DNA of 25,394 nt from a virus: the UHGV virus genome UHGV-1498341; one strand, written 5' to 3'. Made by a program: the position numbers and the translations under genes. Positions 1,153 through 19,847 of the stretch are shown in pieces. The notes beneath the pieces are model-generated. The model ran no database searches. It had not been told where the DNA came from and saw nothing but the letters and a program-made list of their open reading frames with translations. Numbering within the stretch: position 1 is the first letter of the stretch; every line of letters begins with the position of its first letter.

Positions 1153-1419
1153 CTAATGTGTATCCATATACAACTCAGCTGCACTCATTTTGCGGAGTGG
1201 TAAATCTTTACAGTATTTTTGGACATTATCATATTTCCATTTTAGTCTCTTAATAATTCTATTAACCTTACCTACTGAAATATTAAACTTTTCAGCTTGC
1301 TCTGATATTGTAAGACCTGCAACTCTTGTGCAGAGTATATCCTGCTCCTCTTTAGTTAAACAAGCTTCCTCAATAAAAGTCTCGACTATCTTTTTAGTCC
1401 AACATATTTGTTTTGCCAT
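1153..1419 (-). CDS. small HTH DNA-binding protein (sigma-70 region 4 / ArpU-like transcription regulator)
   Basis: 88 aa. LTKEEQDILCTRVAGLTISEQAEKFNISVGKVNRIIKRLKWK is a sigma-70 region-4 / LuxR-type helix-turn-helix. RBS taggagg. Confidence 0.55.
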   Translation of the reverse strand: MAKQICWTKKIVETFIEEACLTKEEQDILCTRVAGLTISEQAEKFNISVGKVNRIIKRLKWKYDNVQKYCKDLPLRKMSAAELYMDTH

Positions 1420-2832: not shown

Positions 2833-3117
2833 TTATATATATGTAAACAAGTATCCATACGTCTTATTTGAAATCATATGGTATGAATACTCGATTACTA
2901 CTCCTAATACGTTTCCTATCCTCGTATCATCGCCAACTACTACATTGTTTTCATTAGCTAACTGTGTTGTAACATTATTGACTAGACATTTAAAAAATGT
3001 ATCTAGCTCATCCTCATCTAGTAGACTCAACCAATTACTAGGATAGGACTTTAGATTGGTAACTATCCATGATTTTACATGTCTTTTAAATCGTGATAAC
3101 TTAAAACTTTCAAACAT
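2833..3117 (-). CDS. hypothetical protein upstream of the endolysin
   Basis: The ORF track starts at a GTG at 3126. The ATG at 3117 has a better RBS (taggaggtg, 6 nt spacer). A consensus sigma-A promoter lies just upstream. Confidence 0.5.
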   Translation of the reverse strand: MFESFKLSRFKRHVKSWIVTNLKSYPSNWLSLLDEDELDTFFKCLVNNVTTQLANENNVVVGDDTRIGNVLGVVIEYSYHMISNKTYGYLFTYI

Positions 3118-3141
3118 TATGGTCACCTCCTAATATGTAGT

Positions 3142-3170
3142 ATTATACCATAATTATTAGTTAAAGTCAA
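3142..3170 (-). promoter_or_regulatory. near-consensus sigma-A promoter: TTGACT-N17-TATAAT
   Basis: Minus strand. TTGACT at 3165-3170, spacer ttaactaataattatgg (17 nt), TATAAT at 3142-3147. Predicted start near 3135. Drives the small gene plus the endolysin. Confidence 0.7.
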
Positions 3171-3232: not shown

Positions 3233-3262
3233 AAAAAGACCAGCAACTTAACATTGCTGGTC
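3233..3262 (-). terminator. rho-independent terminator after accessory island gene 4
   Basis: Minus-strand RNA: gaccagca-auguuaagu-ugcugguc (8-bp GC-rich stem) followed by UUUUU (plus-strand A-run 3233-3237). Confidence 0.65.
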
Positions 3263-3294: not shown

Positions 3295-3837
3295 TTATTT
3301 TGTCTTAATATCTAATACAACGCTGTAATCATCGTCTTTATTTATACAGCTTTTACCAAAAAGATGAACATCGTTAAATTTCAACTGATGGGCTACACCA
3401 TCTACATTTATAATGATTTTAGCATTACCAAAATCATAACCTATAGAAGCTACCCCTAAAGTTCTGGCATAAGCAAGCAACTCTCGTAAAGTTGTGTAAT
3501 CTTCTGTTTTAGGTGTGTAATCCTTTAAAATAAAAGCTAGGTTACCAGACATAAAAAATTCTCTAATTGGTATCTCAGAAAAGTCATAAAGCTTATCATC
3601 AATTTCAAAGAGTAACTCGTAGCAGAAATTTTCTTTCAAATTATTTATACAATATTGACTGAAATCTTTCATACTTGTAAAATCATAATCTTCATGTAGT
3701 CCTAGTATAATAACATTAGCAGTGTTAATCACTCCTAAAGGCTTTATACTATCTAAAACATAAGTCTTATCGTTTAAATTAAACTGCATTCCACCCTTAC
3801 GACACTGTATCATTTCAACAAAATCAAATAACTTCAT
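3295..3837 (-). CDS. hypothetical protein (accessory island gene 4)
   Basis: 180 aa. RBS aaaaggagg. Followed by an intrinsic terminator. Confidence 0.5.
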   Translation of the reverse strand: MKLFDFVEMIQCRKGGMQFNLNDKTYVLDSIKPLGVINTANVIILGLHEDYDFTSMKDFSQYCINNLKENFCYELLFEIDDKLYDFSEIPIREFFMSGNLAFILKDYTPKTEDYTTLRELLAYARTLGVASIGYDFGNAKIIINVDGVAHQLKFNDVHLFGKSCINKDDDYSVVLDIKTK

Positions 3838-3860
3838 ATTAATATCCTCCTTTTAATTGT

Positions 3861-3882
3861 TAGAGGGGAAAAATCCCCTCTA
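3861..3882 (-). other. perfect 9-bp hairpin between island genes 3 and 4, with no U-tract
   Basis: tagagggga-aaaa-tcccctcta lies between the stop at 3880 and the next RBS. It may be a processing or stability element or a partial attenuator. Confidence 0.4.
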
Positions 3883-4533
3883 AAACAATATCCTCTGCTC
3901 TACCCCTTTATTACGATAGAATTCCTCAACCTTTAATTTATTTGATTCAATCCAATCATCTTTAACTTCTTCTATGCATGAATCATATGGTATAAGCTGT
4001 TTTCTTAATTCATCAATATCATGAGCTGAAACATAAGTATCATACAAAGAAAACTCTTTAACAAATTTACCATGCTTTACGTTTTCACTTCTAGTGCAAA
4101 ACTCTAAGTAATTAGGGTCTGCACTTAGCTTCTTTAAAGGAGCTGTATCAATGACTACTCCTTTGTAGTAAGCATTATCACAACCTATATTCAACAACTT
4201 TGGTTGCATCTTACTTATAACACAATGATTGATTTCTAACCCTGACTGATACTTTTCAAAGGCTATTTTATCGGTTGCAAGCATTGTTAGCGCATACAAC
4301 TTAATCGGCATCCCTGAAATATAAACTTCAGGGTAAATACCTCCCTTACAAAAATGAACTGGGAGTTTCTGCATGTCACCTGCATTATTCATTTTATGCA
4401 CTACAAAAGTATTATCTACTTTATAAGTGCCATCAGATAACTCAAAAGTTGCTGATTTGAACGAGCCATCTGACTCAAACTCACGATGCATATTTGCATC
4501 GATTACTCCTAGCATTCTTAAAGTCTCACTCAT
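3880..4533 (-). CDS. hypothetical protein (accessory island gene 3)
   Basis: 217 aa. RBS aaggagg sits inside the upstream gene's 3' end, suggesting translational coupling. No motif recognised. Confidence 0.5.
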   Translation of the reverse strand: MSETLRMLGVIDANMHREFESDGSFKSATFELSDGTYKVDNTFVVHKMNNAGDMQKLPVHFCKGGIYPEVYISGMPIKLYALTMLATDKIAFEKYQSGLEINHCVISKMQPKLLNIGCDNAYYKGVVIDTAPLKKLSADPNYLEFCTRSENVKHGKFVKEFSLYDTYVSAHDIDELRKQLIPYDSCIEEVKDDWIESNKLKVEEFYRNKGVEQRILF

Positions 4534-4534
4534 T

Positions 4535-4828
4535 TTATTTGTCCTCCTTATTGATTAAATCTAAACTGTAACCTGCACTGATTGTTGATGCTAAAACCAT
4601 CAACTCATTCAACTCCTTCTTCAAACCCTTTATAAGGTCTGAAGATGCAACATCATGCTCACGCATAACATTATAAACTTCATCTTTATCATCTGACCAA
4701 AACAGGTCTTCAGATAATACCTTTTCTCTTGAGGTATTATACTTATCCTCAAGCTTTTCAACCTTTTGAACAAGAGGTTGTAACTGGCTTAAACCACTTA
4801 AAAATAACTCAACATTTTTGTTTAACAT
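4535..4828 (-). CDS. hypothetical helical protein (accessory island gene 2)
   Basis: 97 aa. Strong RBS aaaggagg. Its stop lies 1 nt from the next start. Confidence 0.5.
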   Translation of the reverse strand: MLNKNVELFLSGLSQLQPLVQKVEKLEDKYNTSREKVLSEDLFWSDDKDEVYNVMREHDVASSDLIKGLKKELNELMVLASTISAGYSLDLINKEDK

Positions 4829-4941
4829 TTTATTTTCCTCCTTTAATTGTTTAATAAATATATTTTTATATTAAATGCTAGAAGAAACACCTTATAAAAG
4901 ATATTCATCTTGAGGTGATAATATGATTTTTACTCCTCTAG

Positions 4942-4963
4942 CATTTCATACACAATATATTTT
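4942..4963 (-). promoter_or_regulatory. conserved 22-bp box, copy 1 (aaaatatattgtgtatgaaatg on the minus strand)
   Basis: 21 of 22 positions identical to copy 2. Lies 114 nt upstream of the island gene 2 ATG. A possible weak promoter (TTGTGT-N17-TAAAAA) overlaps it. A 12-bp inverted repeat (aaatgctagaag at 4873-4884, cctctagcattt at 4935-4946) flanks it. Confidence 0.4.
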
Positions 4964-4987
4964 CATATCATGTTTATGAAAACAAAC

Positions 4988-5467
4988 CTAATATTTGCAA
5001 GGTTCATCCTCACGAACCTTAAAGTCTGTTAGGTCTAATAAAGACCTCATCAAACTCTCCTCTACTTCTTTCGTTGTAAAATGTTCATAATCTACCTCAT
5101 ATGTAAGATATGAAGATACCTGCTCTAACAACGACTCCTTGAGCCATACAAACTGAGCATATTCATCTGGACTGAATACATCCAGACCTAACACATCATC
5201 AAGTATACTACAACTATGGTAGTATACTTTATCTTCAGTAGCCTGAAGATAAATCTTAAGGACTAATACTACCCCTGAGATTGAAACCTCTTTGTAAAAA
5301 GATATTTCTGTTATACCTTGATAATTTGTATCACTTCCATATGCCAATACCATACCATTAACTTCTTCAAACTTAGTAACTAAATAATCCATGCTACTAA
5401 ACATATTAATACTTCTGTGCTCTTTCTTAAACTCCTTGCTCTCAACTACTTTACTTGATAATCTCAT
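4988..5467 (-). CDS. hypothetical acidic protein (accessory island gene 1)
   Basis: 159 aa. Preceded by a 460-nt leader that is driven by a consensus promoter. Confidence 0.5.
   Translation of the reverse strand: MRLSSKVVESKEFKKEHRSINMFSSMDYLVTKFEEVNGMVLAYGSDTNYQGITEISFYKEVSISGVVLVLKIYLQATEDKVYYHSCSILDDVLGLDVFSPDEYAQFVWLKESLLEQVSSYLTYEVDYEHFTTKEVEESLMRSLLDLTDFKVREDEPCKY
5269..5277 (-). repeat. motif copy (exact), in island gene 1
   Basis: Reads ISGVVLVL (frame 1). Confidence 0.8.
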
Positions 5468-5610
5468 TTTTTTGTCCTCCTATAAAGATAATATTGTAAT
5501 AAGTCTTTGTATAATATAAAATGATATTCACTTTGTGGTGTGGAGTCTCACATTTGTTCAATTTAATATTCGTGAGGGGTAAGATTAAAACCATCGCCAC
5601 ATTGTTTATT

Positions 5611-5632
5611 CATTTTATACACAATATATTTT
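5611..5632 (-). promoter_or_regulatory. conserved 22-bp box, copy 2 (aaaatatattgtgtataaaatg on the minus strand)
   Basis: Lies 144 nt upstream of the island gene 1 ATG, inside the long leader. Candidate operator shared by the two island transcription units. Confidence 0.4.
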
Positions 5633-5933
5633 GAACTCAAGTAAGTGAAAAATAAGCTGATAAAATATATTTTTCATACTTACTTTATTCAGTTATACAA
5701 AGTATATTTTCATCTCAGTTAGTAGTAAAAATACCTTACAAAACATAAAAGTAAATATTTACTACCCCTTGGTTATGTAAAACATATTTTGATATTACAA
5801 ATACATAAAAATACATTATAAAGACAAAAAATAAGTGAGGCACACTACAAACTTGTAATGCACCCCACCTATCTTAAAGAGGACAATAAAATGAGAAGAA
5901 CATAAGGCAAAACCCTAAACTTATTACTCACTT

Positions 5934-5962
5934 ATTATAACATAAAACTAAGAAAATGTCAA
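5934..5962 (-). promoter_or_regulatory. perfect consensus sigma-A promoter: TTGACA-N17-TATAAT
   Basis: Minus strand. TTGACA at 5957-5962, a 17-nt spacer, TATAAT at 5934-5939. Begins 10 bp after the holin stop and points into the 460-nt leader and accessory island. Confidence 0.7.
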
Positions 5963-5971
5963 TACATCTAC

Positions 5972-6469
5972 TTATTCATTCTTATCTTTTATATTGAATG
6001 TCTTTTTAATCCAATTAACTACCTCTCTTGGTGTTGATTTATCTACACAATCAGATACCTGAACTAATATCTCTTTAACCCATTTAGGGAAAGGAACTCC
6101 AATATTAGCTAAATTTTCTAAAAGACTTATAAGCTCCTCAATACAGAACCAAATAACAACTAAAGTCCTTATTGATAATGATATGCCCCAAAACGTAGGT
6201 GTTTTTCCTGCTAAGTCTAGCAAACACATATCAACCTTCAATGCTATGAAAATAGCTAGGAAAATAAAGACCTTTCTCATAATTCCATTACGTAACTCAG
6301 TTGAACTTAAAGTCTTCTTCATGATAGCGTATACTACCCCTGAAATCATATCAACCAATATTAATGAGATTAGCAACTCAAGTGCTGAATCAAATCCACC
6401 TAATGCTGCAACTACAGTAGATATTACAACTGTAAAACTAGACTTGATGATAAATAATGCTTTATCCAT
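5972..6469 (-). CDS. holin (phage_holin_4_1 / holin_tox_secr, TcdE-phi105 type)
   Basis: 165 aa with three or four hydrophobic helices (VVISTVVAALGG, LLISLILVDMISGVVYAI, VFIFLAIFIALKV, LVVIWFCIEELISLL) and a charged C-terminus. Lies directly after the tail genes. Confidence 0.75.
   Translation of the reverse strand: MDKALFIIKSSFTVVISTVVAALGGFDSALELLISLILVDMISGVVYAIMKKTLSSTELRNGIMRKVFIFLAIFIALKVDMCLLDLAGKTPTFWGISLSIRTLVVIWFCIEELISLLENLANIGVPFPKWVKEILVQVSDCVDKSTPREVVNWIKKTFNIKDKNE
6334..6342 (-). repeat. motif copy (exact), in the holin
   Basis: Reads MISGVVYA (frame 1). Confidence 0.8.
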
Positions 6470-10241: not shown

Positions 10242-13200
10242 CTAAAAGTTACCTGTCTTTGTAGCATTACCATTAACAGTATTTATTATATAACTTGATA
10301 ACTTATTATTTTTATCAAGATATACATTAACCTGAATAGGTTTATTACTAGAACCTATGTTTCCAGTAGCTAACTTAGAATAAATGTTTCCGACTGAACG
10401 AACTACCCCTGAGACGTCAGAAGCACTAGCATATGCTGCTTCAAGATTAGCTCTACCAACTGATGGATTTACTACTAAACTAGACTGTAGGTTAATCATT
10501 TCTCTTAGGTTATCAAACTTACTAGCTACATAATCAAAAGCCATATCAGTTTGTCTCATCAAAGAATCATACATACCATCAAATTTACCTACTGGTATTA
10601 ATGAGTTTGCATCTAACTGGCTGTTTTCAAATTCACCTGAAAGTGATGAGCACATATTACCAATAGCATTAGTAGCGACTTTAGCGTTTGACTCTACCCC
10701 TAAAGCCACACCTTCAGGTATAAATGATGCAAGCGACTTAAATACTCTCGAAGGTGAATGAATACCTAAAGCATCTTTAAAGTTTGTAATCACATTATTT
10801 GCGAAACTACGAATACCAGTAAACACACCTGCCTGCTTTTTATCATCGCTAATACCAGCATTTATGCCATCAATAACATTAGCACCTGCTGATTTACCTG
10901 CCTCGTAAGCTTTAATAGTATTTTCGGCAGTAGACTTAGAAACTAAAGAAATCATAGCTTCCATTGTAGATGTATCTGTATTTAAAGCACTAGACATACT
11001 AGATGTTAAAGAACCACCAACAGCTAAACCTTTTGCAAATGCATTTGTATTTTCATCTGCTGTTGCTCGAGCAACTAGATTTGCCTCACTAGTTTGTAAA
11101 CTAGTATCTGTAGCTAATAATGAAGTAGCTCCTGATGTAATGTTACTAGCTACCCCTGCTCCTTTTGACTTTGCCAAAGTATTACTATCTGAAGTAGCAT
11201 CACTAACTAAACTACTTGTAGCAGTATCGACAGATGTATCAGCATTAAGTATCGATGCTACACCTGCTGTAAGGTTTGAACCAACTGTGCTACCTTTTGT
11301 CTTAGCACTTACATTTGTCTCACTTGTTGCATCAGTAACTAAACTGCTAGTAGCATTATCTACAGTAGAATCTGCAAATAAAGCTGCTGAAACTCCTGTG
11401 GTAAGGTTTGTAGCTACCCCTGAACCTTTCTCTGTAGCACCAGTATTTGCATCTGAAGTAGCATCACTTACTAAATTTGCGACAGACGTATCTACAGTAG
11501 TATCTGAACCTACAGTTTCATTTACCTTATCTAAAAGATTTTTAGATAACTGCTCACCTGCATTAGACCAAGTAAGAGTTAACTCATTTACTTCATCAGC
11601 ACTAAACTTTGTATTTTGCTTTAACTTAGAGAAGTTTTCATCTAATGCATTAAATTGAATATCATTTAGAGAATCTATTGTGTCTACAGTAGACTCAAAT
11701 TCAAGAGATAAATCCTGCGCTAAAGAATAAACATTATCAAATGCTGCACTCTTATCTTCAAATTCAGCATTATTATAATCATCAATAGCTTTCTTCAAAT
11801 TTTTAAACTGAGTAGAACCTCCTGCTCCAGCCTTTTCCAATCTATTCAGATATTCAGTTAAATCTTCAATAGAGGTCTTAGTATCTTCGCCAAAGCTAAT
11901 ATCATCTACTAATGTAGAAATATTATCGTAAGTTCCCTGCAATTGTTTAAGTTTATCTCTATATTCTTGTAAATTAGAATAAGCACTTGGGTCAACAGAT
12001 AAAGTTATTGTACCCTTTAAATCTTCTCTCATACCATCAAGAATATCTTCAGTAGCAACAGTTTGGTCTAGTCCATCTTTTACACCATCTACTAAAGTCT
12101 TACCTAATGATATAGCCATTGCTAAAATTGCACCTTTAAGTCCAAACTTTGCTGCATTTGCAACTGTAAATACACCACCAAGACCTCCAGTTCCTATAAT
12201 TGTAGGTGCTCCTCCTAATAGTGAACTAGCTAAACTACTTACAATACTACTACCTAATAAACCTATTCCTAATCTAGGGATATTACTCCGTAATCTAACA
12301 CCAAACAAAAGACCAAATGCCTTTATTAAGTATCCCTCACCCTCAGTAGAACTTAATCCGTCAGAAATACCCTTAATAATTGAAATGCCTAAATCCAACC
12401 GATTTATCTTACTAATAGTCTCACCTATTAAGTTAAAGATATTAGTTATTGCTGAAGTAATACCACTAGCTAAATTTTCAACACTACCATCATCAACTGC
12501 TCCATTAATAGCGTCTGCTATGTCAGTGGATAAAGTATCTGTATCAATATCTCCAATTGTATGGAATATTGTAGCAAATAAATTCAGTATTGCTGATACA
12601 GCCTTACTTAACTTAGAGCTATCAATACCTTGAATAGCTGTATTGATTGTTGTTACTACCCCTGATGCTATTGAGTCTAATGTATCCTCGTTACCAATAC
12701 TTGAAGCTATTACATCAAAAGCAAGATTGAGTAAACCTGCAATATTATTACCTATTTCCTCAGCACCACCGTTACCGAATAATCTTTCTACAGCTCCGTC
12801 AATGAAATCTTTTATAGCAGTTCCTATCTCATTTCCTAAATCCTGCTCCTTTGCTTTTTCAATGAAACCTGCAAGGATATCCATAGCAGACCTAAAGCCT
12901 GTAACGAAAGCCTTTCCTACTTCTTCCCATTTAGTTTCAGTAGCTAAACCGTAAAAGAAGTCTGAAATTTTTGCACCTGTCTTACTTAAAAGGTCCTTTT
13001 TAACTGCCTGTTCATATAAATCATTTATTGAGTAAGCAATAAGATTAATACCTGCTCCAAATGTCTGACCAAGTTTTTTAGTATCATAATCTAGCAAACC
13101 ATCATAGAAATCAGTTAAAGCATCATTGAAATTATGAATACCTGTCTTTAACTTTGGGTCAGTCAACTTATCATAAATAGTATCAGTTATATTATTTAAT

Positions 13201-15425
13201 TGTTTAGCTAAAGACTTACCAGCTTCATTCCATTTTTTATCTTTCAATAAATTGAAAAACTCATCAAACCATTTTTCAAGTGGTGTCTTTTCAATGTCTG
13301 GTGCTTTTGTTAAACTAGCCCAATCTAAAGGCTTTATGCCTGCTCCTACCCCTGAAGCTCCTCCACCAGCTCCTCCACCAGCTCCTGAGCCACTACTTGA
13401 AGATATATTATTAAGTTTATCAAAGCCTTGTAAGTTATCAGCTGCTTCTTTAGCTGCTTTTCCTGTCTTATCTAAAGCCTTAGACTCATTACCTAAAGCG
13501 TCAGCAGTATCGTCAATATATCCTGCGGCTGAGTCATCAAATATTGTTCCTTTAGCCCCACCTGTCAAGGCTTTAATAGAGTCTGAGTCAAAACCAAATA
13601 AACTAGCTAAAGCTGTAAAAGCATTAATAGCCGCACCAACAATCTGATTTAGAATCCTTACAACTGGCAATAAAGTCTTTACAAAGTATCCACCAACTAT
13701 TGATGCTAAAGACATAAACTGTGATTTTAATAATCTTATCTGGTTAGCCCATGTAAACTGTGTACGAGCAAAATCACCCTGAGCCTGTGAAGCTGACTCG
13801 ACAATATAATTGTATCTAAGAGTAATCCTAGAAGCCTGATCCATATCTTTGTATGCTGTTTGAATACCTTTAGACATACGATAAAGCTCAAGATTTGTAG
13901 CAGATACGTTTATACCGTAAGTCCTTAATGCTGCTGCATTACCTGCTAATCCTGCTTGTAGCTTCTTAAAGAATACATCCTGGTCTACATCATAGAATGA
14001 TGCTAAATCACCAGTCATTTTTGTAAGATTTTCAGAAAAGCTTGCTAACTCATTGCTTGCAATACCTGATGCGCTTAATATACCACCAAATGTAGCTGAA
14101 AACTTAGTAGCTGAATTTTCAGTTAAACCAAAGTCCCTTGCTGATGTTCGTGCAAACTCAGTTACAGCGTTTGCGCTCTCACCAAATACATATTGTAATC
14201 TATTTTGAGCCTCAGTCAATTCAGAACTTAAACCTATTGCAGTCTTAAAGCCCTTTGCTACCCCTGCTCCTAAAATCAAAGACCTTAACTGCTGAGCTAC
14301 CCCTGAAGATGATGAAGATGAAAATATTGACTTAAACTTTTCACCTATACCATTCAATACAGAAGTAAAAGCACTTTTCAGATAACTCGCAGATTTTGTA
14401 ATAACTGTCTTTGAGATATTATAAACGTCATTAAAAGACTTTTTAGCAATACTACCTAACTCTTTAAAGCCTGATTTAAGTCTATCAGCAATATTAGATT
14501 GTAACTGTTGACCTAACTGATTATACTGTCCTTGTAGTGCCGATATATCCTGCTGTAAACTTGGTGGCAATATGCTTGACTGCGAACTAACTCTGTTCTG
14601 TAAATCAGATATTTGTGAGCCTAAAGCTCTATATTCACCGACAAGAGTTGATGTCTTTGTAGCTGAATCATTAGTTTTTTCAACCAAACTATTAAAAGAA
14701 TTTGTTAATACATTTAACTCGTTTCTAAAACCATTCAGCTTATTAACATCAAATGCGTGTGCATTCGCATTACTTTGGTCTACTGCTGCTTTAGTAGTAT
14801 TTGTATATAATTTATAACCTTCAGCTAAATTTTTATTAAACTCTGCATCTGATGTTGCACTTTGTTTAATACTTTGACTCATCATATTGCTTAAAGGTAT
14901 AGTCCTTATATACGTTTTCTCTATTTCTGGTAGTGTCTTTACCATTGCATTTAATTCTGCAAATTGTCCTTTTGAAACTGAACCTGGTGAATATGTATTT
15001 AATATCTGTGCAAATGATTTATACCTATTAATTAATCCTTCAAGTTCAGAAGTAGCTGTCTTTATTCCATCTGGTAATACTGCTCCAGTTTTTGCTGTCG
15101 TCTGGAGACTTTCATACCCTGCCTTTATTTTACCAAAATATAGACTAGCTGTATCTAGCTTACTTAATTCATCGTATGCACCCTTAAATAAGTCCTTATT
15201 AACAGTATTTTTCAATGATAAAAATTTACCTTCTAACTCATTGACTTTTGATACTGCTTTATCTAGTTTACCCAAGTCAGTTGTATTTTGTGATAAATTA
15301 TATAAATACTTATAAGCTTGTTTAAGATTCAAAGCTGCTTTCTCAAACTCATAAGTAGCTTTATCAATTTTACCACTTTTAAAGTCTGTCTCTATATTTG
15401 CTCTAATGTCTACATTAACAGCCAT
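10242..15425 (-). CDS. tail tape measure protein
   Basis: 1727 aa. Coiled-coil N-terminus, a Gly-rich segment and 4 tandem 44-aa Ser/Thr/Ala-rich repeats. Size and position are unmistakable. Predicts a tail of roughly 250 nm. Confidence 0.9.
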   Translation of the reverse strand: MAVNVDIRANIETDFKSGKIDKATYEFEKAALNLKQAYKYLYNLSQNTTDLGKLDKAVSKVNELEGKFLSLKNTVNKDLFKGAYDELSKLDTASLYFGKIKAGYESLQTTAKTGAVLPDGIKTATSELEGLINRYKSFAQILNTYSPGSVSKGQFAELNAMVKTLPEIEKTYIRTIPLSNMMSQSIKQSATSDAEFNKNLAEGYKLYTNTTKAAVDQSNANAHAFDVNKLNGFRNELNVLTNSFNSLVEKTNDSATKTSTLVGEYRALGSQISDLQNRVSSQSSILPPSLQQDISALQGQYNQLGQQLQSNIADRLKSGFKELGSIAKKSFNDVYNISKTVITKSASYLKSAFTSVLNGIGEKFKSIFSSSSSSGVAQQLRSLILGAGVAKGFKTAIGLSSELTEAQNRLQYVFGESANAVTEFARTSARDFGLTENSATKFSATFGGILSASGIASNELASFSENLTKMTGDLASFYDVDQDVFFKKLQAGLAGNAAALRTYGINVSATNLELYRMSKGIQTAYKDMDQASRITLRYNYIVESASQAQGDFARTQFTWANQIRLLKSQFMSLASIVGGYFVKTLLPVVRILNQIVGAAINAFTALASLFGFDSDSIKALTGGAKGTIFDDSAAGYIDDTADALGNESKALDKTGKAAKEAADNLQGFDKLNNISSSSGSGAGGGAGGGASGVGAGIKPLDWASLTKAPDIEKTPLEKWFDEFFNLLKDKKWNEAGKSLAKQLNNITDTIYDKLTDPKLKTGIHNFNDALTDFYDGLLDYDTKKLGQTFGAGINLIAYSINDLYEQAVKKDLLSKTGAKISDFFYGLATETKWEEVGKAFVTGFRSAMDILAGFIEKAKEQDLGNEIGTAIKDFIDGAVERLFGNGGAEEIGNNIAGLLNLAFDVIASSIGNEDTLDSIASGVVTTINTAIQGIDSSKLSKAVSAILNLFATIFHTIGDIDTDTLSTDIADAINGAVDDGSVENLASGITSAITNIFNLIGETISKINRLDLGISIIKGISDGLSSTEGEGYLIKAFGLLFGVRLRSNIPRLGIGLLGSSIVSSLASSLLGGAPTIIGTGGLGGVFTVANAAKFGLKGAILAMAISLGKTLVDGVKDGLDQTVATEDILDGMREDLKGTITLSVDPSAYSNLQEYRDKLKQLQGTYDNISTLVDDISFGEDTKTSIEDLTEYLNRLEKAGAGGSTQFKNLKKAIDDYNNAEFEDKSAAFDNVYSLAQDLSLEFESTVDTIDSLNDIQFNALDENFSKLKQNTKFSADEVNELTLTWSNAGEQLSKNLLDKVNETVGSDTTVDTSVANLVSDATSDANTGATEKGSGVATNLTTGVSAALFADSTVDNATSSLVTDATSETNVSAKTKGSTVGSNLTAGVASILNADTSVDTATSSLVSDATSDSNTLAKSKGAGVASNITSGATSLLATDTSLQTSEANLVARATADENTNAFAKGLAVGGSLTSSMSSALNTDTSTMEAMISLVSKSTAENTIKAYEAGKSAGANVIDGINAGISDDKKQAGVFTGIRSFANNVITNFKDALGIHSPSRVFKSLASFIPEGVALGVESNAKVATNAIGNMCSSLSGEFENSQLDANSLIPVGKFDGMYDSLMRQTDMAFDYVASKFDNLREMINLQSSLVVNPSVGRANLEAAYASASDVSGVVRSVGNIYSKLATGNIGSSNKPIQVNVYLDKNNKLSSYIINTVNGNATKTGNF
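10404..10412 (-). repeat. motif copy (exact), in the tape measure gene
   Basis: Reads SGVVRSV (frame 1). Confidence 0.8.
11150..11158 (-). repeat. motif copy (exact), in tape measure repeat unit 3
   Basis: Reads KGAGVASN (frame 1). Confidence 0.8.
11414..11422 (-). repeat. motif copy (exact), in tape measure repeat unit 1
   Basis: Reads KGSGVATN (frame 1). Lies 264 bp, two repeat units, from the copy at 11150. Confidence 0.8.
12656..12664 (-). repeat. motif copy (exact), in the tape measure gene
   Basis: Reads IASGVVTT (frame 1). Confidence 0.8.
13346..13354 (-). repeat. motif copy (exact), in the tape measure gene
   Basis: Reads GASGVGAG (frame 1). Confidence 0.8.
13356..13385 (-). repeat. 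15-bp direct repeat (gctcctccaccagct x2) encoding the Gly-rich tape measure segment
   Basis: gctcctccaccagctcctccaccagctcct encodes GAGGGAGGGASG. Confidence 0.6.
14258..14266 (-). repeat. motif copy (exact), in the tape measure gene
   Basis: Reads GAGVAKG (frame 1). Confidence 0.8.
14297..14305 (-). repeat. motif copy (exact), in the tape measure gene
   Basis: Reads SSSGVAQQ (frame 1). Lies 39 bp from the previous copy. Confidence 0.8.
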
Positions 15426-15458
15426 ATATTAAACCTCCTAACTTATATTTAATATATT

Positions 15459-15485
15459 AAAAAAGGAGAGCAAATATGCTCCCCT
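15459..15485 (-). terminator. rho-independent terminator 30 bp upstream of the tape measure start codon
   Basis: Minus-strand RNA: aggggagca-uauu-ugcucuccu (9-bp stem with one G-U pair) followed by UUUUU, then RBS taggaggt and the tape measure ATG. Confidence 0.6.
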
Positions 15486-15627
15486 CTAGAATCTCACGAG
15501 TAATAAATTACTTCTTCAAAACTACCCCTTTATACTGCCTGAATGGAAATACAACTGAGTGCTTCATAATATTTACAGAAAGGGCATAATAACTACAATA
15601 TAAAAGTAATAAGTTTAAAAGATTTTA

Positions 15628-15855
15628 CTACTTAACAGTGTATTTTACCTTGAACTTTCTATTAGTATACTCTGCTACTTTTTTACGAAGTTCATCTTTA
15701 CTATCGAAATTTTCATTTATGAACTCTGCAAAGTTGTTTAATACTAAACAATATATTGAATAACTGCCTTTTTTCTGCTCAGCTATCGTATTGCATACAA
15801 TATCGAAAGCTTTATTGCTCATCTCATATGGTTTATTGTTTATAACACAAAGCAT
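15628..15855 (-). CDS. small hypothetical protein between the chaperone and tape measure genes
   Basis: 75 aa. Starts 2 nt after the upstream stop. Followed by a 200-bp spacer containing a terminator. Confidence 0.4.
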   Translation of the reverse strand: MLCVINNKPYEMSNKAFDIVCNTIAEQKKGSYSIYCLVLNNFAEFINENFDSKDELRKKVAEYTNRKFKVKYTVK

Positions 15856-15857
15856 AA

Positions 15858-16460
15858 CTACTTACCTCCCAACAATTTGTAATAATAAGAGCCAAACTTT
15901 TCCTTTTGCTCTGCAAGATAAGCATCACGCTCTTCCTTTGTAACTTGAGTTTTAATTTTAAACTTTGATTTTAAATCAATATAATACTTTTTAGTGTCAC
16001 CCTTCATTTTAGAAGTATCAGTAGCTCGGTAAGAAATTTTCTGACTCAAAGGACAATCACCAAGATTGTTTAAAAAAGCCATAAACTTAAACCAATGCAT
16101 ATTAGACTTATGTAGGTCTACCCCTGCTACAAGAAAAGCACCATAAATATCAAAAGCATCAAACTGAAAATCAAGATACTTTTCATTAGTCTCATTTATT
16201 TCATCTTCAAGATAGTATACCTCAGACTTACCACAAGATAAGAACCACATCATACCATTGAAAGCTGTTTCAAAGTCAGGAACTTTATCTTTATATAATA
16301 AATCAAAAGCCTTCAATAATTTAATGTCCTCTGGAAATCTTGTATCCTCAGTTAAAAGAGTAAGTGCAATACCAACTCGAAAGCTGGTATTGATAGCACT
16401 ACCCCTGTATTCGGTTGGAAACTGCTCAAGTAAGCAATTATACATCAACCTCACCACCAT
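15858..16460 (-). CDS. tail assembly chaperone T-like segment (possible G-T fusion by recoding, or a separately initiated protein)
   Basis: 200 aa ORF in the +1 frame relative to the G-like ORF. A TAG lies immediately upstream of its first ATG. A GGTGGTGAGG RBS-like sequence sits 8 nt upstream of the second Met (MYNCLL). Confidence 0.5.
   Translation of the reverse strand: MVVRLMYNCLLEQFPTEYRGSAINTSFRVGIALTLLTEDTRFPEDIKLLKAFDLLYKDKVPDFETAFNGMMWFLSCGKSEVYYLEDEINETNEKYLDFQFDAFDIYGAFLVAGVDLHKSNMHWFKFMAFLNNLGDCPLSQKISYRATDTSKMKGDTKKYYIDLKSKFKIKTQVTKEERDAYLAEQKEKFGSYYYKLLGGK
16118..16126 (-). repeat. motif copy (exact), in the T-like chaperone ORF
   Basis: Reads VAGVDLH (frame 1). Confidence 0.8.
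16399..16407 (-). repeat. motif copy (exact), in the T-like chaperone ORF
   Basis: Reads EYRGSAI (frame 2). Confidence 0.8.
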
Positions 16461-16890
16461 CTACAACAGTAAACTTATCTGTATTATATAGTTTATTTAA
16501 CTCTTCAATTGCTGCATTTTCCTCTTTCTTATAATCAGAAAGATATGGTAAAATTGTATTAAATAACTCAGCATAACGCTCTACCCCTGGTAAGGTATCA
16601 CCAAACATCTGCTCAGTAATATTCGTATTAAATGCCTTATCTACATCCTCTTTGAAAGTAGTAAGAACCTTCTCTTCAATTTCAGCATACGCAATAAGCT
16701 TTTCAAGGGCATCTTCAGTCTCAATAGACTCAAACTCTTTGTTCAAACTCTCATCAATATTTTGATACTTTTTCATAAGTCTAAGAATGTTACCAACTAA
16801 TCTCTTATCAGAGAAGTCAATTCTTACAACATTATCTGTTCCCTCTACATGTAATTCACAAATCTTTGATAAATTTTTGATAGTATTCAT
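16438..16890 (-). CDS. tail assembly chaperone (gpG-like)
   Basis: 150 aa acidic protein between the major tail and tape measure genes. Its 3' end overlaps the next ORF by 23 nt. Confidence 0.55.
   Translation of the reverse strand: MNTIKNLSKICELHVEGTDNVVRIDFSDKRLVGNILRLMKKYQNIDESLNKEFESIETEDALEKLIAYAEIEEKVLTTFKEDVDKAFNTNITEQMFGDTLPGVERYAELFNTILPYLSDYKKEENAAIEELNKLYNTDKFTVVDGGEVDV
16581..16589 (-). repeat. motif copy (exact), in the G-like chaperone
   Basis: Reads LPGVERY (frame 1). Confidence 0.8.
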
Positions 16891-16912
16891 TTTAAATCCT
16901 CCTAGAACTTTT

Positions 16913-16949
16913 AAAAAGATAGGATACCCCTAGATAACTAGAGGTATCC
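16913..16949 (-). terminator. terminator/attenuator hairpin between the major tail and chaperone genes
   Basis: Minus-strand RNA: ggauaccucuag-uuau-cuagggguaucc (12-bp stem with one G-U pair), then uauc and UUUUU. The stem contains a variant copy of the motif (GGGGTATCC). Confidence 0.5.
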
Positions 16950-16955
16950 AAAATG

Positions 16956-17483
16956 TTATAAACTACTCTTAGGTGTGAAAGTAGCTACTCCAGTCTCCTT
17001 ATCGTATGAAGCAGTTCCCTCAACAGCCTCACCTACAATAGTGTAAGTAGCCTCTACCTTGATTTTATCCTGAGCGTCTCCACCAAATGAAGAAACTTCA
17101 CAGACTGCTGGATATTTATAAGCTACATTGCCACCAGTAGCATATGTCTTAATCTGAACAAGCTCACAGTTAGCTTTGCTATCTGTAACCTCATGGTCAA
17201 AAAGATACTCTTCATACTTACAAACTGGGTCTTCTTTAAGATAAACACCTGAATGTGAAAAACTCTTCTTATACGCTTTAATAACGTGATTAGCTACTTT
17301 AGAAGTAACGTCTGCTGGGTCATCAGTCTCAACACCTGAATCCATACTATTTGACTCAGCCATTAAGAGAGCCATATGAAATGCTTTTGTCTCAAATGTA
17401 GATAAATCTTCTGGAACGTTTACAAAATACAAAAGTTCCTCAGAACCTACAGTTGACTGTCTTATTTCTGTTAGATTAGCCAT
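16956..17483 (-). CDS. major tail protein (TP901-1/phi13-type)
   Basis: 175 aa acidic protein. Followed by a terminator-like hairpin and then the chaperone pair, the classic siphovirus layout. Confidence 0.6.
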   Translation of the reverse strand: MANLTEIRQSTVGSEELLYFVNVPEDLSTFETKAFHMALLMAESNSMDSGVETDDPADVTSKVANHVIKAYKKSFSHSGVYLKEDPVCKYEEYLFDHEVTDSKANCELVQIKTYATGGNVAYKYPAVCEVSSFGGDAQDKIKVEATYTIVGEAVEGTASYDKETGVATFTPKSSL

Positions 17484-17485
17484 GA

Positions 17486-17920
17486 CTATAATCTCCTTCC
17501 ATAATTGATAGAAAATTTACTAATAAAATCTTTTGCACCATTTGCATAGACTGCTGAAAGCTTGGTGGAAGCCTTAGTAACTACCCCTGATACATAGAAA
17601 TCATCAGTTTTGATTGATTTATAGTTAGACTTGATAAAAGATACCAAATCATCAACTATCTTGATTGAATCTAAATCGGCAAATCCATTATCGTTTGCCA
17701 TAATACGATAATAACATTGTAATGATATTTCTCCATCAACAAACATACCAGTGATGTCCTTTTTCTCAACTACAGTATTATCATCAGCAAGTGAAAACAT
17801 TATACTATCTTTATCAGGCTTTAACTCATCAAATGATAGTTTCAATTTAGTGCCTGACCTGATTGTATAGTTACTATTTATATAAGAAATAATAAACTCA
17901 ATAATTTCAGATATACTCAT
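17486..17920 (-). CDS. tail completion / tail terminator protein
   Basis: 144 aa. Immediately upstream of the major tail gene. Assigned by synteny. Confidence 0.4.
   Translation of the reverse strand: MSISEIIEFIISYINSNYTIRSGTKLKLSFDELKPDKDSIMFSLADDNTVVEKKDITGMFVDGEISLQCYYRIMANDNGFADLDSIKIVDDLVSFIKSNYKSIKTDDFYVSGVVTKASTKLSAVYANGAKDFISKFSINYGRRL
17581..17589 (-). repeat. motif copy (exact), in the tail completion gene
   Basis: Reads SGVVTKA (frame 1). Confidence 0.8.
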
Positions 17921-18309
17921 TATTTAGCCTCCAAACCTTGTAATAAGTCCTTCGCATATTGGTCAGCCCATTTCTTAGCATACTCACGTTCAGAAACATC
18001 GACTGGATTACCTTGAGCTTGTATATGAACATCTTTTGTATAATTTTTTGGAATACCTGATGGGGCTATTGGATTGAAAGCATAGCTTGCATAACTCTCC
18101 GCATACATGTAACCCTTTGGAGTATCTGGCACATTTTTTGCTAGATTACCATGTTTATAAGGAACAAATTGGTCGGTATCTTTTTTGATATTATTGACCA
18201 GATTGCGATAAGCTTGCTCTTTATTTTTATCTATTGTCTTTTGAACCTCTTCTATAATAAGACTAGATATATCTAAGTTAGGTGAAATTGTAACAACTTT
18301 ATTTGCCAT
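17920..18309 (-). CDS. head-tail joining / tail-component protein (HK97 gp10-like)
   Basis: 129 aa. Its stop overlaps the next gene's start (ATGA). Assigned by synteny. Confidence 0.4.
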   Translation of the reverse strand: MANKVVTISPNLDISSLIIEEVQKTIDKNKEQAYRNLVNNIKKDTDQFVPYKHGNLAKNVPDTPKGYMYAESYASYAFNPIAPSGIPKNYTKDVHIQAQGNPVDVSEREYAKKWADQYAKDLLQGLEAK

Positions 18310-18324
18310 ATGAAATCACCTCAT

Positions 18325-18744
18325 TTACTTAGCAACTATAACTTTATTATCTAAATTACTGCCAAATTGATAATCAGATATAGCAGTAATCTCATATAAG
18401 CTACCCCTATTGTTTCGGTAATCATTTATTGTTAAACCATCTAAGTCAATAACTCCAAAACCAATTAAATCTTCTTTGGATATTGTATATGTAGTATCTA
18501 TATTAACTGTCTCGTCATTTTTAAAGGTAAATGAATCGACATAACTTTTATTTGCTTTAACATCTCTTGGAATGTAACAAGTAACTTTATCATCTTTGCT
18601 ACTACCAGTAGTTTTTCGTGCATTTACCTCATCCAAAACAAACTGAACACCTGATAATATAACCCTTGAGTAATATACTTTATTATCTCGTTCATACTTA
18701 TTGAAAATTGTAATAGTATGTGGAAATAACGACATAATACTCAA
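18325..18744 (-). CDS. head closure / head-tail adaptor protein
   Basis: 139 aa. Assigned by synteny. Confidence 0.4.
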   Translation of the reverse strand: MSIMSLFPHTITIFNKYERDNKVYYSRVILSGVQFVLDEVNARKTTGSSKDDKVTCYIPRDVKANKSYVDSFTFKNDETVNIDTTYTISKEDLIGFGVIDLDGLTINDYRNNRGSLYEITAISDYQFGSNLDNKVIVAK

Positions 18745-18768
18745 ACCTCCTTTAATAACATCAAAGTT

Positions 18769-19152: not shown

Positions 19153-19205
19153 TTATGATAACTAATATAAACTAAATAACTTTAAATTATATTACTTATC
19201 ATAAC

Positions 19206-19228
19206 AGTGGGTGGACTAGCCACCCACT
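19206..19228 (-). terminator. GC-rich hairpin after the post-MCP gene (weak terminator or RNA stabiliser)
   Basis: agtgggtgg-actag-ccacccact is a perfect 9-bp stem. Downstream on the minus strand is U-rich but has no clean U-tract. Confidence 0.4.
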
Positions 19229-19231
19229 AGA

Positions 19232-19792: not shown

Positions 19793-19847
19793 AGAATTCA
19801 AACCATAAATAGGTTTGCCCTTATAACTTAAGTTTATCTGAATCTTT

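What the first reader, a model, noticed from the sequence alone, without database searches (positions are those of the whole stretch)
3295..5971. A 2.7-kb accessory island with its own consensus promoter and terminator splits the holin from the endolysin
Holin (5972-6469) and endolysin (1708-2796) are normally adjacent. Here four genes of no recognisable family (159, 97, 217 and 180 aa) sit between them. The last three form a tight operon, with stop and start 1 nt apart and an internal RBS. The island is bounded by a perfect TTGACA-N17-TATAAT promoter at 5934-5962 and a clean intrinsic terminator at 3233-3262. It also contains a long leader and a duplicated 22-bp box. Modules of this shape usually carry prophage-expressed cargo (defence, superinfection exclusion, anti-defence or lysis-timing functions). 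None of the four proteins shows a motif I recognise, so this could be an undescribed system.
Basis: partly seen in the sequence, partly recalled or inferred. Interest (0 to 1): 0.7.

Follow-up and report, generated by a model that had tools for sequence, protein, structure and literature searches.

The report
Core early module, not accessory island
The stretch between the holin and the endolysin is mostly a conserved core module of a family of very small gut phages (a short RNA unit, two unknown proteins and an HNH nuclease); only its last gene is swappable cargo, and the whole genome also carries a one-strand-only GGGGTA motif that may tie in with the nuclease.

Summary
The ORFs, the perfect promoter, the terminator and the repeated boxes are all real. 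The "accessory island" reading mostly fails.

- **Source.** The window is almost the whole ~25.4-kb genome of the uncultivated gut phage Siphoviridae sp. ctoSr5. No integrase, replication or recombination gene was recognised.
- **Core genes.** The 159-, 97- and 217-aa genes lie between holin and endolysin in every relative examined, including lineages whose 217-aa homolog is only 30-51% identical. They evolve under purifying selection.
- **Cargo.** Only the 180-aa gene is dispensable. Its slot has conserved flanks and in relatives holds other genes, a methylase, a deletion remnant or nothing.
- **Promoter.** The consensus promoter runs into a strong terminator about 100 nt downstream. This gives a conserved short non-coding RNA. 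Its single-stranded segment is complementary to the ribosome-binding sites of the 217- and 159-aa genes.
- **Extra finding.** GGGGTA occurs 44 times on the coding strand and once on the other (about 5 expected in total), in all lineages. It could be the nuclease's site or a Chi-like site.

Function remains inferred. My best guess is a nuclease-based DNA replication or processing module.

The parts
5934..5962 (-). Perfect sigma-A-type promoter (TTGACA-N17-TATAAT, with TG before the -10), directly after the holin stop codon
   Evidence: Nearly invariant in 8 relatives. An equivalent 12/12 promoter lies directly after the holin in L021 (8274-8302) and L025 (9088-9116).
5826..5927 (-). Predicted ~100-nt non-coding RNA: 5' hairpin 5903-5917, single-stranded segment 5876-5902, terminator hairpin 5828-5875 plus U-run
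   Evidence: MFE -32.6 kcal/mol, z -5.3, 0 of 200 shuffles fold as well. 81-95% identical across relatives; frame-breaking indels argue against an ORF. All three stem substitutions keep pairing, and the 5' hairpin has a G-C to A-U double change in L108. No Rfam match.
5879..5895 (-). Anti-RBS segment CUCAUUUUAUUGUCCUC within the short RNA
   Evidence: Inverted repeat with 5462-5479, 94% complementary. The two best duplex sites in the whole sense transcriptome are the translation start regions of the 217-aa gene (-29.2 kcal/mol) and the 159-aa gene (-26.7). 0 of 1000 shuffled segments do as well.
5480..5825 (-). AT-rich control region with two copies of the box GAAAATATAYTKTGTAT (5695-5711, 5617-5633; 78 nt apart) and one GGGGTAG copy (5763-5769)
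   Evidence: The counterpart in L021 is a 77-bp tandem array (TRF 4.1 copies; about 6 box copies by eye). About 4 and 3 box copies seen by eye in L025 and L024. Candidate origin of replication and/or array of early promoters.
4988..5467 (-). 159-aa core protein of unknown fold class (five-strand antiparallel sheet plus two long helices)
4829..4987 (-). Second control region: third box copy (4948-4964) and the 22-nt box (4896-4917), paralogous to the region upstream of the 159-aa gene
   Evidence: In several relatives a 49-51-aa membrane-protein gene is inserted here.
4535..4828 (-). 97-aa helical protein, the conserved upstream partner of the nuclease
   Evidence: Stop codon is 1 nt before the 217-aa start. 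Homologs sit directly upstream of the HNH-like gene in L021 (E 2e-12) and L020 (E 3.5e-13); the alignment shows the motif LSEDLFW most clearly in L026. dN/dS 0.25-0.35.
3880..4533 (-). 217-aa I-HmuI-like HNH (beta-beta-alpha-metal) nuclease; a family without a Pfam model
3863..3880 (-). Hairpin GAGGGG-loop-CCCCTC overlapping the 217-aa stop codon; the 5' boundary of the cargo slot
   Evidence: Read from the sequence. Conserved in the 7 close relatives checked, absent in L021.
3295..3837 (-). 180-aa cargo gene, function unknown
   Evidence: Only 11 homolog clusters. The slot is variable among relatives, including a 50-aa in-frame deletion remnant in L011 and a 52-aa gene plus EcoRI-like methylase in L018/L019.
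3238..3262 (-). Intrinsic terminator; the 3' boundary of the cargo slot
   Evidence: Conserved in relatives, with a compensatory stem change in L015 and L018.
3142..3170 (-). Promoter TTGACT-N17-TATAAT (with TG) for the 94-aa gene and the endolysin
   Evidence: Conserved in 7 genomes.

Best explanation
The 2.7 kb contain two different things.

**(A) A control region plus a conserved core early module.** Every member of a clade of ~20-27-kb gut siphoviruses carries it between holin and endolysin. It consists of:
- a constitutive promoter-terminator unit that makes a ~100-nt non-coding RNA;
- an AT-rich array of repeated boxes;
- the 159-aa protein;
- a gene pair, apparently translationally coupled, made of the 97-aa helical protein and the 217-aa I-HmuI-like HNH nuclease.

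**(B) A cargo slot** downstream of the nuclease gene, bounded by a conserved hairpin and a conserved terminator. In this phage it holds the 180-aa gene.

*Shown:* synteny and core status of the three genes, purifying selection on them, the HNH fold with invariant catalytic-type residues, the variability of the slot, the conservation of the RNA unit, and the complementarity of that RNA to two translation start regions.

*Inferred mechanism:*
- These phages encode no recognisable replication or recombination protein. I therefore propose that the nuclease, probably a nickase controlled or targeted by its 97-aa partner, cuts phage DNA. The cut would start host-dependent rolling-circle or recombination-dependent replication at or near the AT-rich repeat region.
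- The short RNA would hold down translation of the 217- and 159-aa genes by pairing with their ribosome-binding sites. It could do so in trans, or in cis on read-through late transcripts.
- The strand-polar GGGGTA motif would be either the nuclease's site or a Chi-like site that channels such breaks into recombination.
For: **Core status**
- The three genes are present in the same order in L004, L007, L008, L010, L011, L013, L015 and L018 and in L021, where the HNH homolog is 51% identical.
- The pair of a ~100-aa gene and the HNH-like gene is found in L020, L025 and L026.
- In L021 the only called genes besides structural, lysis and terminase genes are p153, p57, p56, p106 and p222.
- dN/dS is 0.10-0.35, with dS of 0.8-2 for the 159- and 217-aa genes against 0.2-0.4 for terminase and tail genes.
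- GGGGTA density in the stretch (4 copies in 2.7 kb) equals the genome average.

**Nuclease:**

**RNA unit:**. In L025 the single-stranded segment contains UACCAUUGCGAU, which is complementary to the start region of the gene after the HNH gene.

**Cargo slot:**

**Lifestyle**
- No integrase among the precomputed Pfam hits.
- No relative of the 217-aa protein in bacterial genomes.

**Repeat array:**
Against: - No protein in the module has a demonstrated activity.
- The 159-aa fold is uninformative.
- RNA-target complementarity is strong only in the window's own clade. In L021 the best site lies inside the portal gene, and the endolysin start region ranks second.
- The box repeats lack a consistent -35 element and could be neither promoters nor iterons.
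- High dS shows that the module is exchanged among lineages, which also fits a swappable non-essential module.
- The absence of replication genes rests on failed homology searches. One of the unknown proteins (the 159- or 166-aa protein, or the 787-aa protein in L025) could be a novel initiator.
Confidence: 0.55

Rival explanations
1. The whole stretch is an accessory (moron-type) island carrying prophage-expressed cargo, such as a novel defence, superinfection-exclusion, anti-defence or lysis-timing system, driven by the consensus promoter.
For: - The proteins are unannotated.
- A consensus promoter and a terminator flank the stretch.
- The island proteins are less conserved than the structural proteins: 61-89% against 92-100% identity.
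- The 180-aa slot is truly variable and holds a methylase in relatives.
Against: - Three of the four genes are universal and syntenic across deep lineages.
- dN/dS is 0.1-0.35.
- A strong terminator follows the promoter after about 100 nt.
- There is no integrase, and no prophage copies turned up in 185,579 genomes.
- No PADLOC hit.
- Composition and motif density are native to the genome.
Confidence: 0.06
2. The 217-aa protein is an ordinary selfish, free-standing HNH homing endonuclease, and its neighbours are unrelated small early genes.
For: Its closest structural relatives are homing endonucleases (I-HmuI and phage HNH/NUMOD proteins).
Against: - Homing endonucleases are sporadically distributed. 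This gene is present at the same position in every relative.
- The protein phylogeny spans 23-82% identity, and the ~100-aa upstream partner travels with it.
- Strong purifying selection, dN/dS about 0.12-0.14.
Confidence: 0.08
3. The HNH protein is a packaging accessory that helps the terminase cut concatemers, like HK97 gp74 and the HNH genes found next to cos sites and terminase genes.
For: - On the circular map the gene lies close upstream of the terminase genes. In L021 only the endolysin and an 850-nt non-coding region separate them.
- HNH genes next to cos and terminase are common (abstract of PMC3592412, listed).
Against: - The fold matches the I-HmuI type, not the zinc-binding PF01844 type described for those enzymes.
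- No PF01844 hit.
- The gene is embedded in a separately controlled module with the 97- and 159-aa genes rather than in the late operon.
- The terminase large subunit is of the PBSX family.
Confidence: 0.12
4. The module is a host-takeover unit. The nuclease degrades or nicks host DNA to shut the host down and supply nucleotides. The 97-aa protein acts as its inhibitor or timer, and the short RNA limits its toxicity.
For: - Tight RNA-level control of a nuclease gene.
- The nuclease is coupled to a small partner.
- I-HmuI-like nickases are used against foreign replication elsewhere: NixI of the PLE satellite (abstract of PMC9410903, listed).
Against: - It does not explain how a phage with no replication genes copies its DNA.
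- It does not explain the adjacent AT-rich repeat array.
- There is no evidence about the nuclease's target.
Confidence: 0.15

Closest known systems
I-HmuI (PDB 1u3e), the HNH nicking homing endonuclease of Bacillus phage SPO1
   Different: - 18% sequence identity, and no HNH Pfam model matches.
- A 40-residue beta-hairpin insert lies between the two core strands, and the N-terminal beta domain is unrelated.
- Asn-His replaces what I recall to be Asp-His in I-HmuI (from memory).
- The gene is a fixed core gene with a conserved partner, not an intron-borne mobile gene.
NixI, the I-HmuI-like nicking nuclease of the Vibrio PLE satellite (PMC9410903; abstract only)
   Same: An I-HmuI-type nuclease recruited for a non-homing role in the DNA replication biology of a phage-related element.
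   Different: NixI attacks another phage's replication. Here the nuclease is a core gene of the phage itself. No sequence or structure comparison with NixI was made.
Phage morons and cargo hot-spots (a gene cassette between conserved flanks, ending in a terminator)
   Same: The 180-aa slot has conserved flanks (hairpin 3863-3880; terminator 3238-3262 plus promoter 3142-3170), and its content differs among near-identical phages.
   Different: This applies to only about 0.6 kb of the 2.7 kb. The cassette has no promoter of its own and is read from the upstream operon.
Trans-acting antisense sRNAs that block ribosome-binding sites; also lambda PR'-6S RNA-tR' and the non-coding origin transcript of lactococcal phage c2 (the last two from memory)
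   Same: A strong constitutive promoter, a short structured non-coding transcript, an intrinsic terminator, a C/U-rich single-stranded segment complementary to SD and AUG, and a position at the junction of the late and early regions next to AT-rich repeats.
   Different: No Rfam family matches. Expression is unproven. Whether it acts as a regulator, a replication primer or an antitermination substrate is unknown.
Chi-rich lambdoid phages that lack a recombination module (LLS, P1; PMC12315714)
   Same: A phage with no recombination genes or RecBCD inhibitor carries a G-rich short motif as its most over-represented word, almost all copies in one orientation.
   Different: - LLS has 23 Chi sites in its genome (1 per 1.86 kb), 20 of them co-oriented. 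Here there are 44 copies in 25.4 kb (1 per 577 bp), 44:1.
- The motif is not a known Chi sequence.
- It is not enriched in 1.2 Mb of Clostridia DNA: GGGGTAG is seen 54 times against 64 expected.
- It is shared by lineages with GC content from 30 to 42%.
Phages with localised single-strand nicks at a consensus sequence (T5, from memory; Pseudomonas phage tf, PMC3517423, abstract)
   Same: A strand-specific consensus sequence, together with a candidate phage-encoded nickase.
   Different: As far as I recall, those phages have far fewer nick sites than the 44 copies here (not checked in the papers). Nicks have not been shown for this phage.

Membership tests
HNH (beta-beta-alpha-metal) endonucleases, I-HmuI type | beta-beta-alpha-metal fold | tested here: met
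HNH (beta-beta-alpha-metal) endonucleases, I-HmuI type | Conserved general-base His and metal-ligand Asn/His | tested here: met
   N102, H103, E144 and N151 are invariant, and H154 is over 90% conserved, in 48 homologs. Their placement on strand 1 and the helix comes from the DSSP string. No residue-level superposition was done.
HNH (beta-beta-alpha-metal) endonucleases, I-HmuI type | Match to curated HNH sequence models (PF01844, PF13392 and others) | tested here: not met
   No Pfam hit for the query at E up to 10 or for any of 48 family members at E up to 0.1. No PDB sequence hit with the profile.
HNH (beta-beta-alpha-metal) endonucleases, I-HmuI type | Nuclease or nicking activity | not testable with these tools
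   Needs biochemistry.
Free-standing homing endonuclease | Sporadic presence or absence among close relatives | tested here: not met
   Present at the same position in all relatives.
Moron / accessory island | Variable presence among closely related phages | tested here: not met
   Not met for the 159-, 97- and 217-aa genes. Met only for the 180-aa slot.
Moron / accessory island | Own promoter that drives the cargo, and own terminator | tested here: inconclusive
   The terminator is present and conserved. The consensus promoter is followed by a strong terminator before any gene.
Moron / accessory island | Atypical composition | tested here: not met
   GC content is like the rest of the genome. 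Density of the genome-wide motif is normal.
Known anti-phage defence systems (PADLOC-DB 2.0) | Match to a defence-protein model | tested here: not met
   No hit at E up to 1 for any of the four proteins.
Antisense sRNA regulator | Promoter, no ORF, intrinsic terminator, conservation | tested here: met
   The same architecture occurs in L021 and L025.
Antisense sRNA regulator | Single-stranded segment complementary to its targets beyond chance | tested here: met
   Window clade: the top two sites genome-wide are the start regions of the 217- and 159-aa genes, and 0 of 1000 shuffles match this. Weaker or partial in L021 and L025.
Antisense sRNA regulator | Expression and regulatory effect | not testable with these tools
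   Needs RNA-seq or Northern blots and reporter assays.
Chi sites (for the GGGGTA motif) | Short, G-rich, strongly over-represented and co-oriented | tested here: met
   45 copies against 5.0 expected, 44 of them on one strand. Codon-level selection: 29 GGG-GTA dipeptide codons against 2.2 expected.
Chi sites (for the GGGGTA motif) | Over-represented in the host genome and recognised by host AddAB/RecBCD | tested here: inconclusive
   The host is unknown. No enrichment of the 7-mer GGGGTAG in 1.2 Mb of Clostridia/Lachnospiraceae loci, nor of GGGGTA in phage phiCD146.

The most novel reading that the evidence does not exclude
A clade of minimal siphoviruses with no replication or recombination genes replicates through a dedicated I-HmuI-like nickase and its 97-aa partner. 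The nickase reads a strand-polar GGGGTA(G/T) word that is written about every 300-700 bp (one per 301-683 bp across lineages) along one strand of the genome. This creates nick-primed or recombination-primed replication intermediates. Nuclease dosage is set by a conserved anti-RBS small RNA transcribed from a consensus promoter. That would be a previously undescribed phage replication strategy and a new enzyme/site pair.
Probability: 0.2. Interest if true: 0.85.

Novelty: new variant of a known kind. Interest (0 to 1): 0.6.

Why it matters
- **Annotation.** In this widespread group of ~25-kb human-gut phages, a gap between holin and endolysin is not an insertion. It is the phage's only early module, so gene-order rules of thumb can mislabel core genes as cargo.
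- **An open question made testable.** How does a tailed phage with no recognisable replication, recombination or regulatory genes copy its DNA? The module offers a short list of candidates: an uncatalogued HNH nuclease family with an obligate partner, a conserved small RNA, and an AT-rich repeat array.
- **A candidate recognition site.** The genome-wide one-strand GGGGTA motif gives a concrete site to test, either as a nickase target or as the Chi sequence of an unidentified host, probably a Clostridia (lysin hits point to Lachnospiraceae).
- **Where to look for anti-defence genes.** The cargo slot, with its conserved flanks, is a defined place to search for them in these phages.

Tried and rejected
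**Searches that found nothing**
- DNA similarity to 50,697 GenBank phage records, near and distant modes, and tblastn with the 217-aa protein.
- Pfam, PHROGs, NCBIfam and PADLOC for the four proteins. The only result was a faint RepB_C hit for the 180-aa protein (E 0.08), judged to be chance.
- Profile searches against PDB sequences for the 217- and 159-aa families.
- Rfam on the whole window: no hit in the region.
- A relative of the 217-aa protein in bacterial genomes: none.
- Literature search for the motif string: nothing relevant.

**Checks that came out negative**
- The leaders upstream of the 159- and 97-aa genes are not significantly structured (z +0.5 and -2.0).
- Most of the 159-aa leader is deleted in L010.

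**Ideas considered and dropped**
- *DnaA boxes.* TGTGTATAA in the window's boxes fits TTATNCACA. I dropped the idea because the boxes in L021, L024 and L025 lack it.
- *ops/RfaH-like element.* GGGGTAG resembles GGCGGTAG at 6 of 8 positions. I dropped the idea because there are 44 copies, and the C3-G8 hairpin pair that I recall from the RfaH-ops structure would be lost.
- *Internal Shine-Dalgarno-like sites.* Such sites are normally depleted in coding sequence, not enriched.
- *A polarity switch.* The single inverted motif copy at 5576-5581 is not conserved in relatives.

**Technical failures**
- The afdb50 structure library was unavailable.
- A first dN/dS script failed and was rewritten.
- Merging L108 with L014 failed. 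Only the 159-aa start region from L108 was used.


Full report
**1. What the window is**

All ORFs of any length lie on the minus strand. The 217-aa protein is identical to a UniRef/BFVD entry from 'Siphoviridae sp. ctoSr5'. The contigs that carry it are 25.4-25.5 kb long and are circular permutations of one another: L001 runs from the 44-aa gene straight into the terminase genes. So the window is nearly a whole phage genome from human-gut metagenomes.

The gene order on the circle is: terminase small and large subunits (TerL is 35-38% identical to C. difficile phage TerL), portal, capsid, tail, holin, the finding's region, a 94-aa gene, the endolysin, genes of 67, 88 (sigma region-4-like), 166 and 44 aa plus a further 54-aa ORF, a non-coding stretch, and back to the terminase small subunit.

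No integrase, repressor, replication or recombination domain is on record for any gene. No GenBank phage is similar at the DNA level.

**2. Checking the observation**

The holin, the endolysin, the four ORFs, the 12/12 promoter at 5962-5934, the terminator at 3262-3238 and the repeated boxes are all present. None of the four proteins hits Pfam, PHROGs, NCBIfam or PADLOC.

Three details differ from the description:
- A 22-bp hairpin followed by a U-run (5875-5826) lies about 55 nt downstream of the predicted transcription start. The 'long leader' is therefore interrupted by a strong terminator.
- The 217- and 180-aa genes are separated by 42 nt that contain a hairpin.
- A fifth gene (94 aa), with its own 11/12 promoter, sits between the terminator and the endolysin.

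**3. Core or accessory?**

The 217-aa protein has 213 homolog clusters, the listed ones (best 120) at 69-82% identity and many on 24-27-kb contigs. The 159-aa protein has 117 clusters. The 180-aa protein has only 11.

In eight close relatives the order holin, 159, 97, 217 is kept. A full HMMER search gave 49 more distant homologs of the 217-aa protein, and their genomic contexts show the same layout:
- L021 (23.9 kb; HNH homolog 51% identical) has holin, a 600-nt gap, p153 (homolog of the 159-aa protein, E 3e-10), two genes of 56-57 aa, p106 (homolog of the 97-aa protein, E 2e-12), p222, the endolysin, an 850-nt gap and the terminase small subunit. No other non-structural gene is called.
- L020, L024, L025 and L026 (homologs 30-41% identical) again place a ~100-aa gene and the HNH-like gene between a Phage_holin_4_1 holin and an endolysin of varying domain make-up.

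The split between holin and endolysin is therefore the ancestral architecture of a broad clade, not an insertion.

dN/dS is 0.10-0.21 for the 159-aa gene, 0.12-0.14 for the 217-aa gene and 0.25-0.35 for the 97-aa gene. These are functional genes under purifying selection. Their dS of 0.8-2 far exceeds the 0.2-0.4 of terminase, holin and tail genes. This points to exchange of diverged alleles of the module between otherwise near-identical phages.

**4. The cargo slot**

Downstream of the 217-aa gene the content varies:
- a 180-aa gene in the window;
- 35%-identical homologs in L015 and L008;
- an unrelated 182-aa gene in L004;
- three genes in L008;
- a 128-aa gene in L013;
- a truncated 55-aa ORF in L010;
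- a 50-aa in-frame deletion remnant of the 180-aa gene in L011;
- no room for a gene in L014 (about 280 nt between the 217-aa homolog and the endolysin);
- a 52-aa gene plus a 383-aa EcoRI-like methylase in the common variant L018/L019.

The flanks are conserved. On one side is the hairpin GAGGGG-loop-CCCCTC at the 217-aa stop codon. On the other are the terminator, which shows a compensatory C-G to T-A change in L015 and L018, and the TTGACT-N17-TATAAT promoter.

The methylase in relatives hints at anti-restriction content.

**5. The 217-aa protein**

An alignment of 48 homologs (23-69% identical to the window protein) has Y67, N102, H103, E144 and N151 invariant and H154 over 90% conserved, in the pattern NH...YLE...N..HG. 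AlphaFold2 gave pLDDT 95.7 and pTM 0.89.

It is therefore an uncatalogued family within the HNH superfamily. Its fixed position, its conserved upstream partner (stop and start 1 nt apart or overlapping in several lineages) and its purifying selection all argue against a selfish homing element.

**6. The 159- and 97-aa proteins**

**7. The promoter-terminator unit**

From the -10 element to the U-run, the unit is 81-95% identical across relatives whose neighbouring 159-aa gene has dS near 1. Indels break any reading frame.

The predicted RNA of about 100 nt folds into a 5' hairpin, a 27-nt open segment and a 22-bp terminator (-32.6 kcal/mol, z -5.3). All three substitutions in the terminator stem keep pairing, and the 5' hairpin shows one double change.

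A 12/12 promoter followed by a terminator directly after the holin also occurs, with unrelated sequence, in L021 and L025. L024 has a hairpin with an AAUCCUCC loop plus a terminator but no promoter of its own.

In the window, the open segment CUCAUUUUAUUGUCCUC is the reverse complement of the SD-spacer-AUG regions of the 159- and 217-aa genes:
- Among 30 start regions, the four island genes rank 1, 2, 4 and 5.
- Across the whole sense strand, the two best duplex sites are exactly those of the 217-aa gene (-29.2 kcal/mol) and the 159-aa gene (-26.7).
- None of 1000 shuffled segments does as well.

In L025 the open segment contains a 12-nt complement of the start region of the gene that follows the HNH gene. 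In L021 the signal is weak. In L108 the segment and the 159-aa start region share a changed 7-mer, GUAAAAC.

I read this as a likely anti-RBS regulator. It could act in trans, or in cis on late transcripts that read through the terminator. The confidence is moderate. A role as an origin transcript or an antitermination substrate is not excluded.

**8. The repeat boxes**

GAAAATATAYTKTGTAT occurs three times, only upstream of the 159- and 97-aa genes. The core TGAAAATATA recurs in a 77-bp tandem array in L021 (TRF 4.1 copies; about six box copies by eye), and by eye about four times in L025 and three times in L024.

In the window each box overlaps a weak promoter-like site of the form TTTwCw-N17-TATAyT. 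No consistent -35 element exists in the other lineages. They may be early promoters, origin iterons or binding sites. This is unresolved.

**9. An unexpected genome-wide signal**

While reading the leaders I saw GGGGTAG recur.
- GGGGTA occurs 45 times in the window against 5.0 expected. 44 copies are on the coding strand.
- The consensus is (T)CAGGGGTAG. AGGGGTAG occurs 34 times on the sense strand and never on the antisense, against 0.48 expected.
- Copies lie in three reading frames and in four intergenic positions, in most of the larger genes.
- 29 of 65 Gly-Val dipeptides are encoded GGG-GTA, against 2.2 expected.
- Every lineage shows it: L021 47:0, L025 49:0, L026 25:0, across GC contents of 30-42%.
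- There is no enrichment of the 7-mer GGGGTAG in 1.2 Mb of Clostridia/Lachnospiraceae loci fetched through the endolysin, and none of GGGGTA in phage phiCD146.

Known analogues are the co-oriented Chi sites accumulated by lambdoid phages that lack recombination modules (PMC12315714) and the strand-specific nick consensus sites of phages such as tf (PMC3517423, abstract).

The motif is clade-wide across hosts of different GC content, and the clade's hallmark gene is an I-HmuI-type, potentially nicking, nuclease. I therefore slightly favour a phage-encoded reader over a host Chi site. An RNA-level role cannot be excluded, because all genes share one orientation.

**10. Synthesis**

The stretch is the control region and core early module of a minimal phage, with a cargo slot at its end.

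The shown facts are synteny, selection, the nuclease fold, the RNA unit and the slot variability.

The mechanism is inferred and untested: a nuclease-initiated, host-dependent replication or recombination process, damped by an anti-RBS RNA and possibly reading GGGGTA. I give the overall reading a confidence of 0.55, and the full nickase-motif model about 0.2.

Noticed in passing
whole window, minus strand (e.g. 523-528, 5763-5768, 6335-6340, 25081-25086); also L004, L013, L018, L020, L021, L024, L025, L026: GGGGTA (consensus (T)CAGGGGTAG) occurs 44 times on the coding strand and once on the other, against about 5 expected in total. It appears in all reading frames and in intergenic DNA, and shows codon-level selection (29 GGG-GTA against 2.2 expected). 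It is present in every lineage of the clade but is not enriched in Clostridia loci (7-mer GGGGTAG) or in phage phiCD146. Candidates: nickase site, Chi-like site, or an RNA-level signal.
   Followed up: partly
window ends: 1-6 joined to 25372-25394 (minus strand); L001 14527-14555: A third perfect TTGACA-N17-TATAAT promoter spans the window's ends, about 190 nt upstream of the terminase small-subunit gene. L021 has the equivalent at 13037-13065. The late operon therefore appears to be driven by a consensus host-type promoter.
   Followed up: partly
window 2833-3170: A fifth gene (94 aa, no family) with its own 11/12 promoter (3170-3142) lies between the island's terminator and the endolysin. 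The endolysin would thus be transcribed separately from the holin. The gene is conserved in most close relatives but absent in L013, L014 and L021.
   Followed up: partly
L008 6546-6695; L010 6556-6705; L011 6553-6702; L013 6500-6655; L021 9360-9533: Several relatives carry a 49-57-aa predicted membrane protein gene directly upstream of the 97-aa gene. The window, L004 and L015 lack it and have only the box-containing spacer there.
   Followed up: no
L018 and L019 11750-13294: In a common variant (its 159-aa protein was seen on 59 contigs) the cargo slot holds a 52-aa gene and a 383-aa EcoRI-like DNA methylase (PF13651). This suggests the slot carries anti-restriction cargo.
   Followed up: partly
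L011 7696-7848: A 50-aa ORF that joins the first 6 and about the last 44 residues of the 180-aa protein. It is an in-frame deletion remnant and shows that this gene is dispensable.
   Followed up: partly
window 1153-1419: An 88-aa protein with weak sigma-70 region-4/HTH matches (E about 1e-4). It is 80-98% identical in seven close relatives (no match in L008) but absent from L021. It may be a late-gene activator that is not universal in the clade.
   Followed up: no
window 15369-15489 (minus strand): Sub-threshold Rfam match to the ribosomal S15 leader (30.2 bits against a gathering score of 39.5, E 0.0019) at the junction before the tape-measure gene. Probably chance.
   Followed up: no
L017 (80.6-kb contig), 13295-20480: After the methylase, the contig continues into unrelated genes (GmrSD/HNH, DNA ligase, ParB-HNH) instead of the endolysin. 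This is probably a chimeric assembly or a recombinant with another element.
   Followed up: no
window 5576-5581 (plus strand): The only inverted GGGGTA copy lies in the leader of the 159-aa gene, about 185 nt from the direct copy at 5763-5768. The two flank the two box repeats. It is not conserved in most relatives, so it is probably chance.
   Followed up: partly
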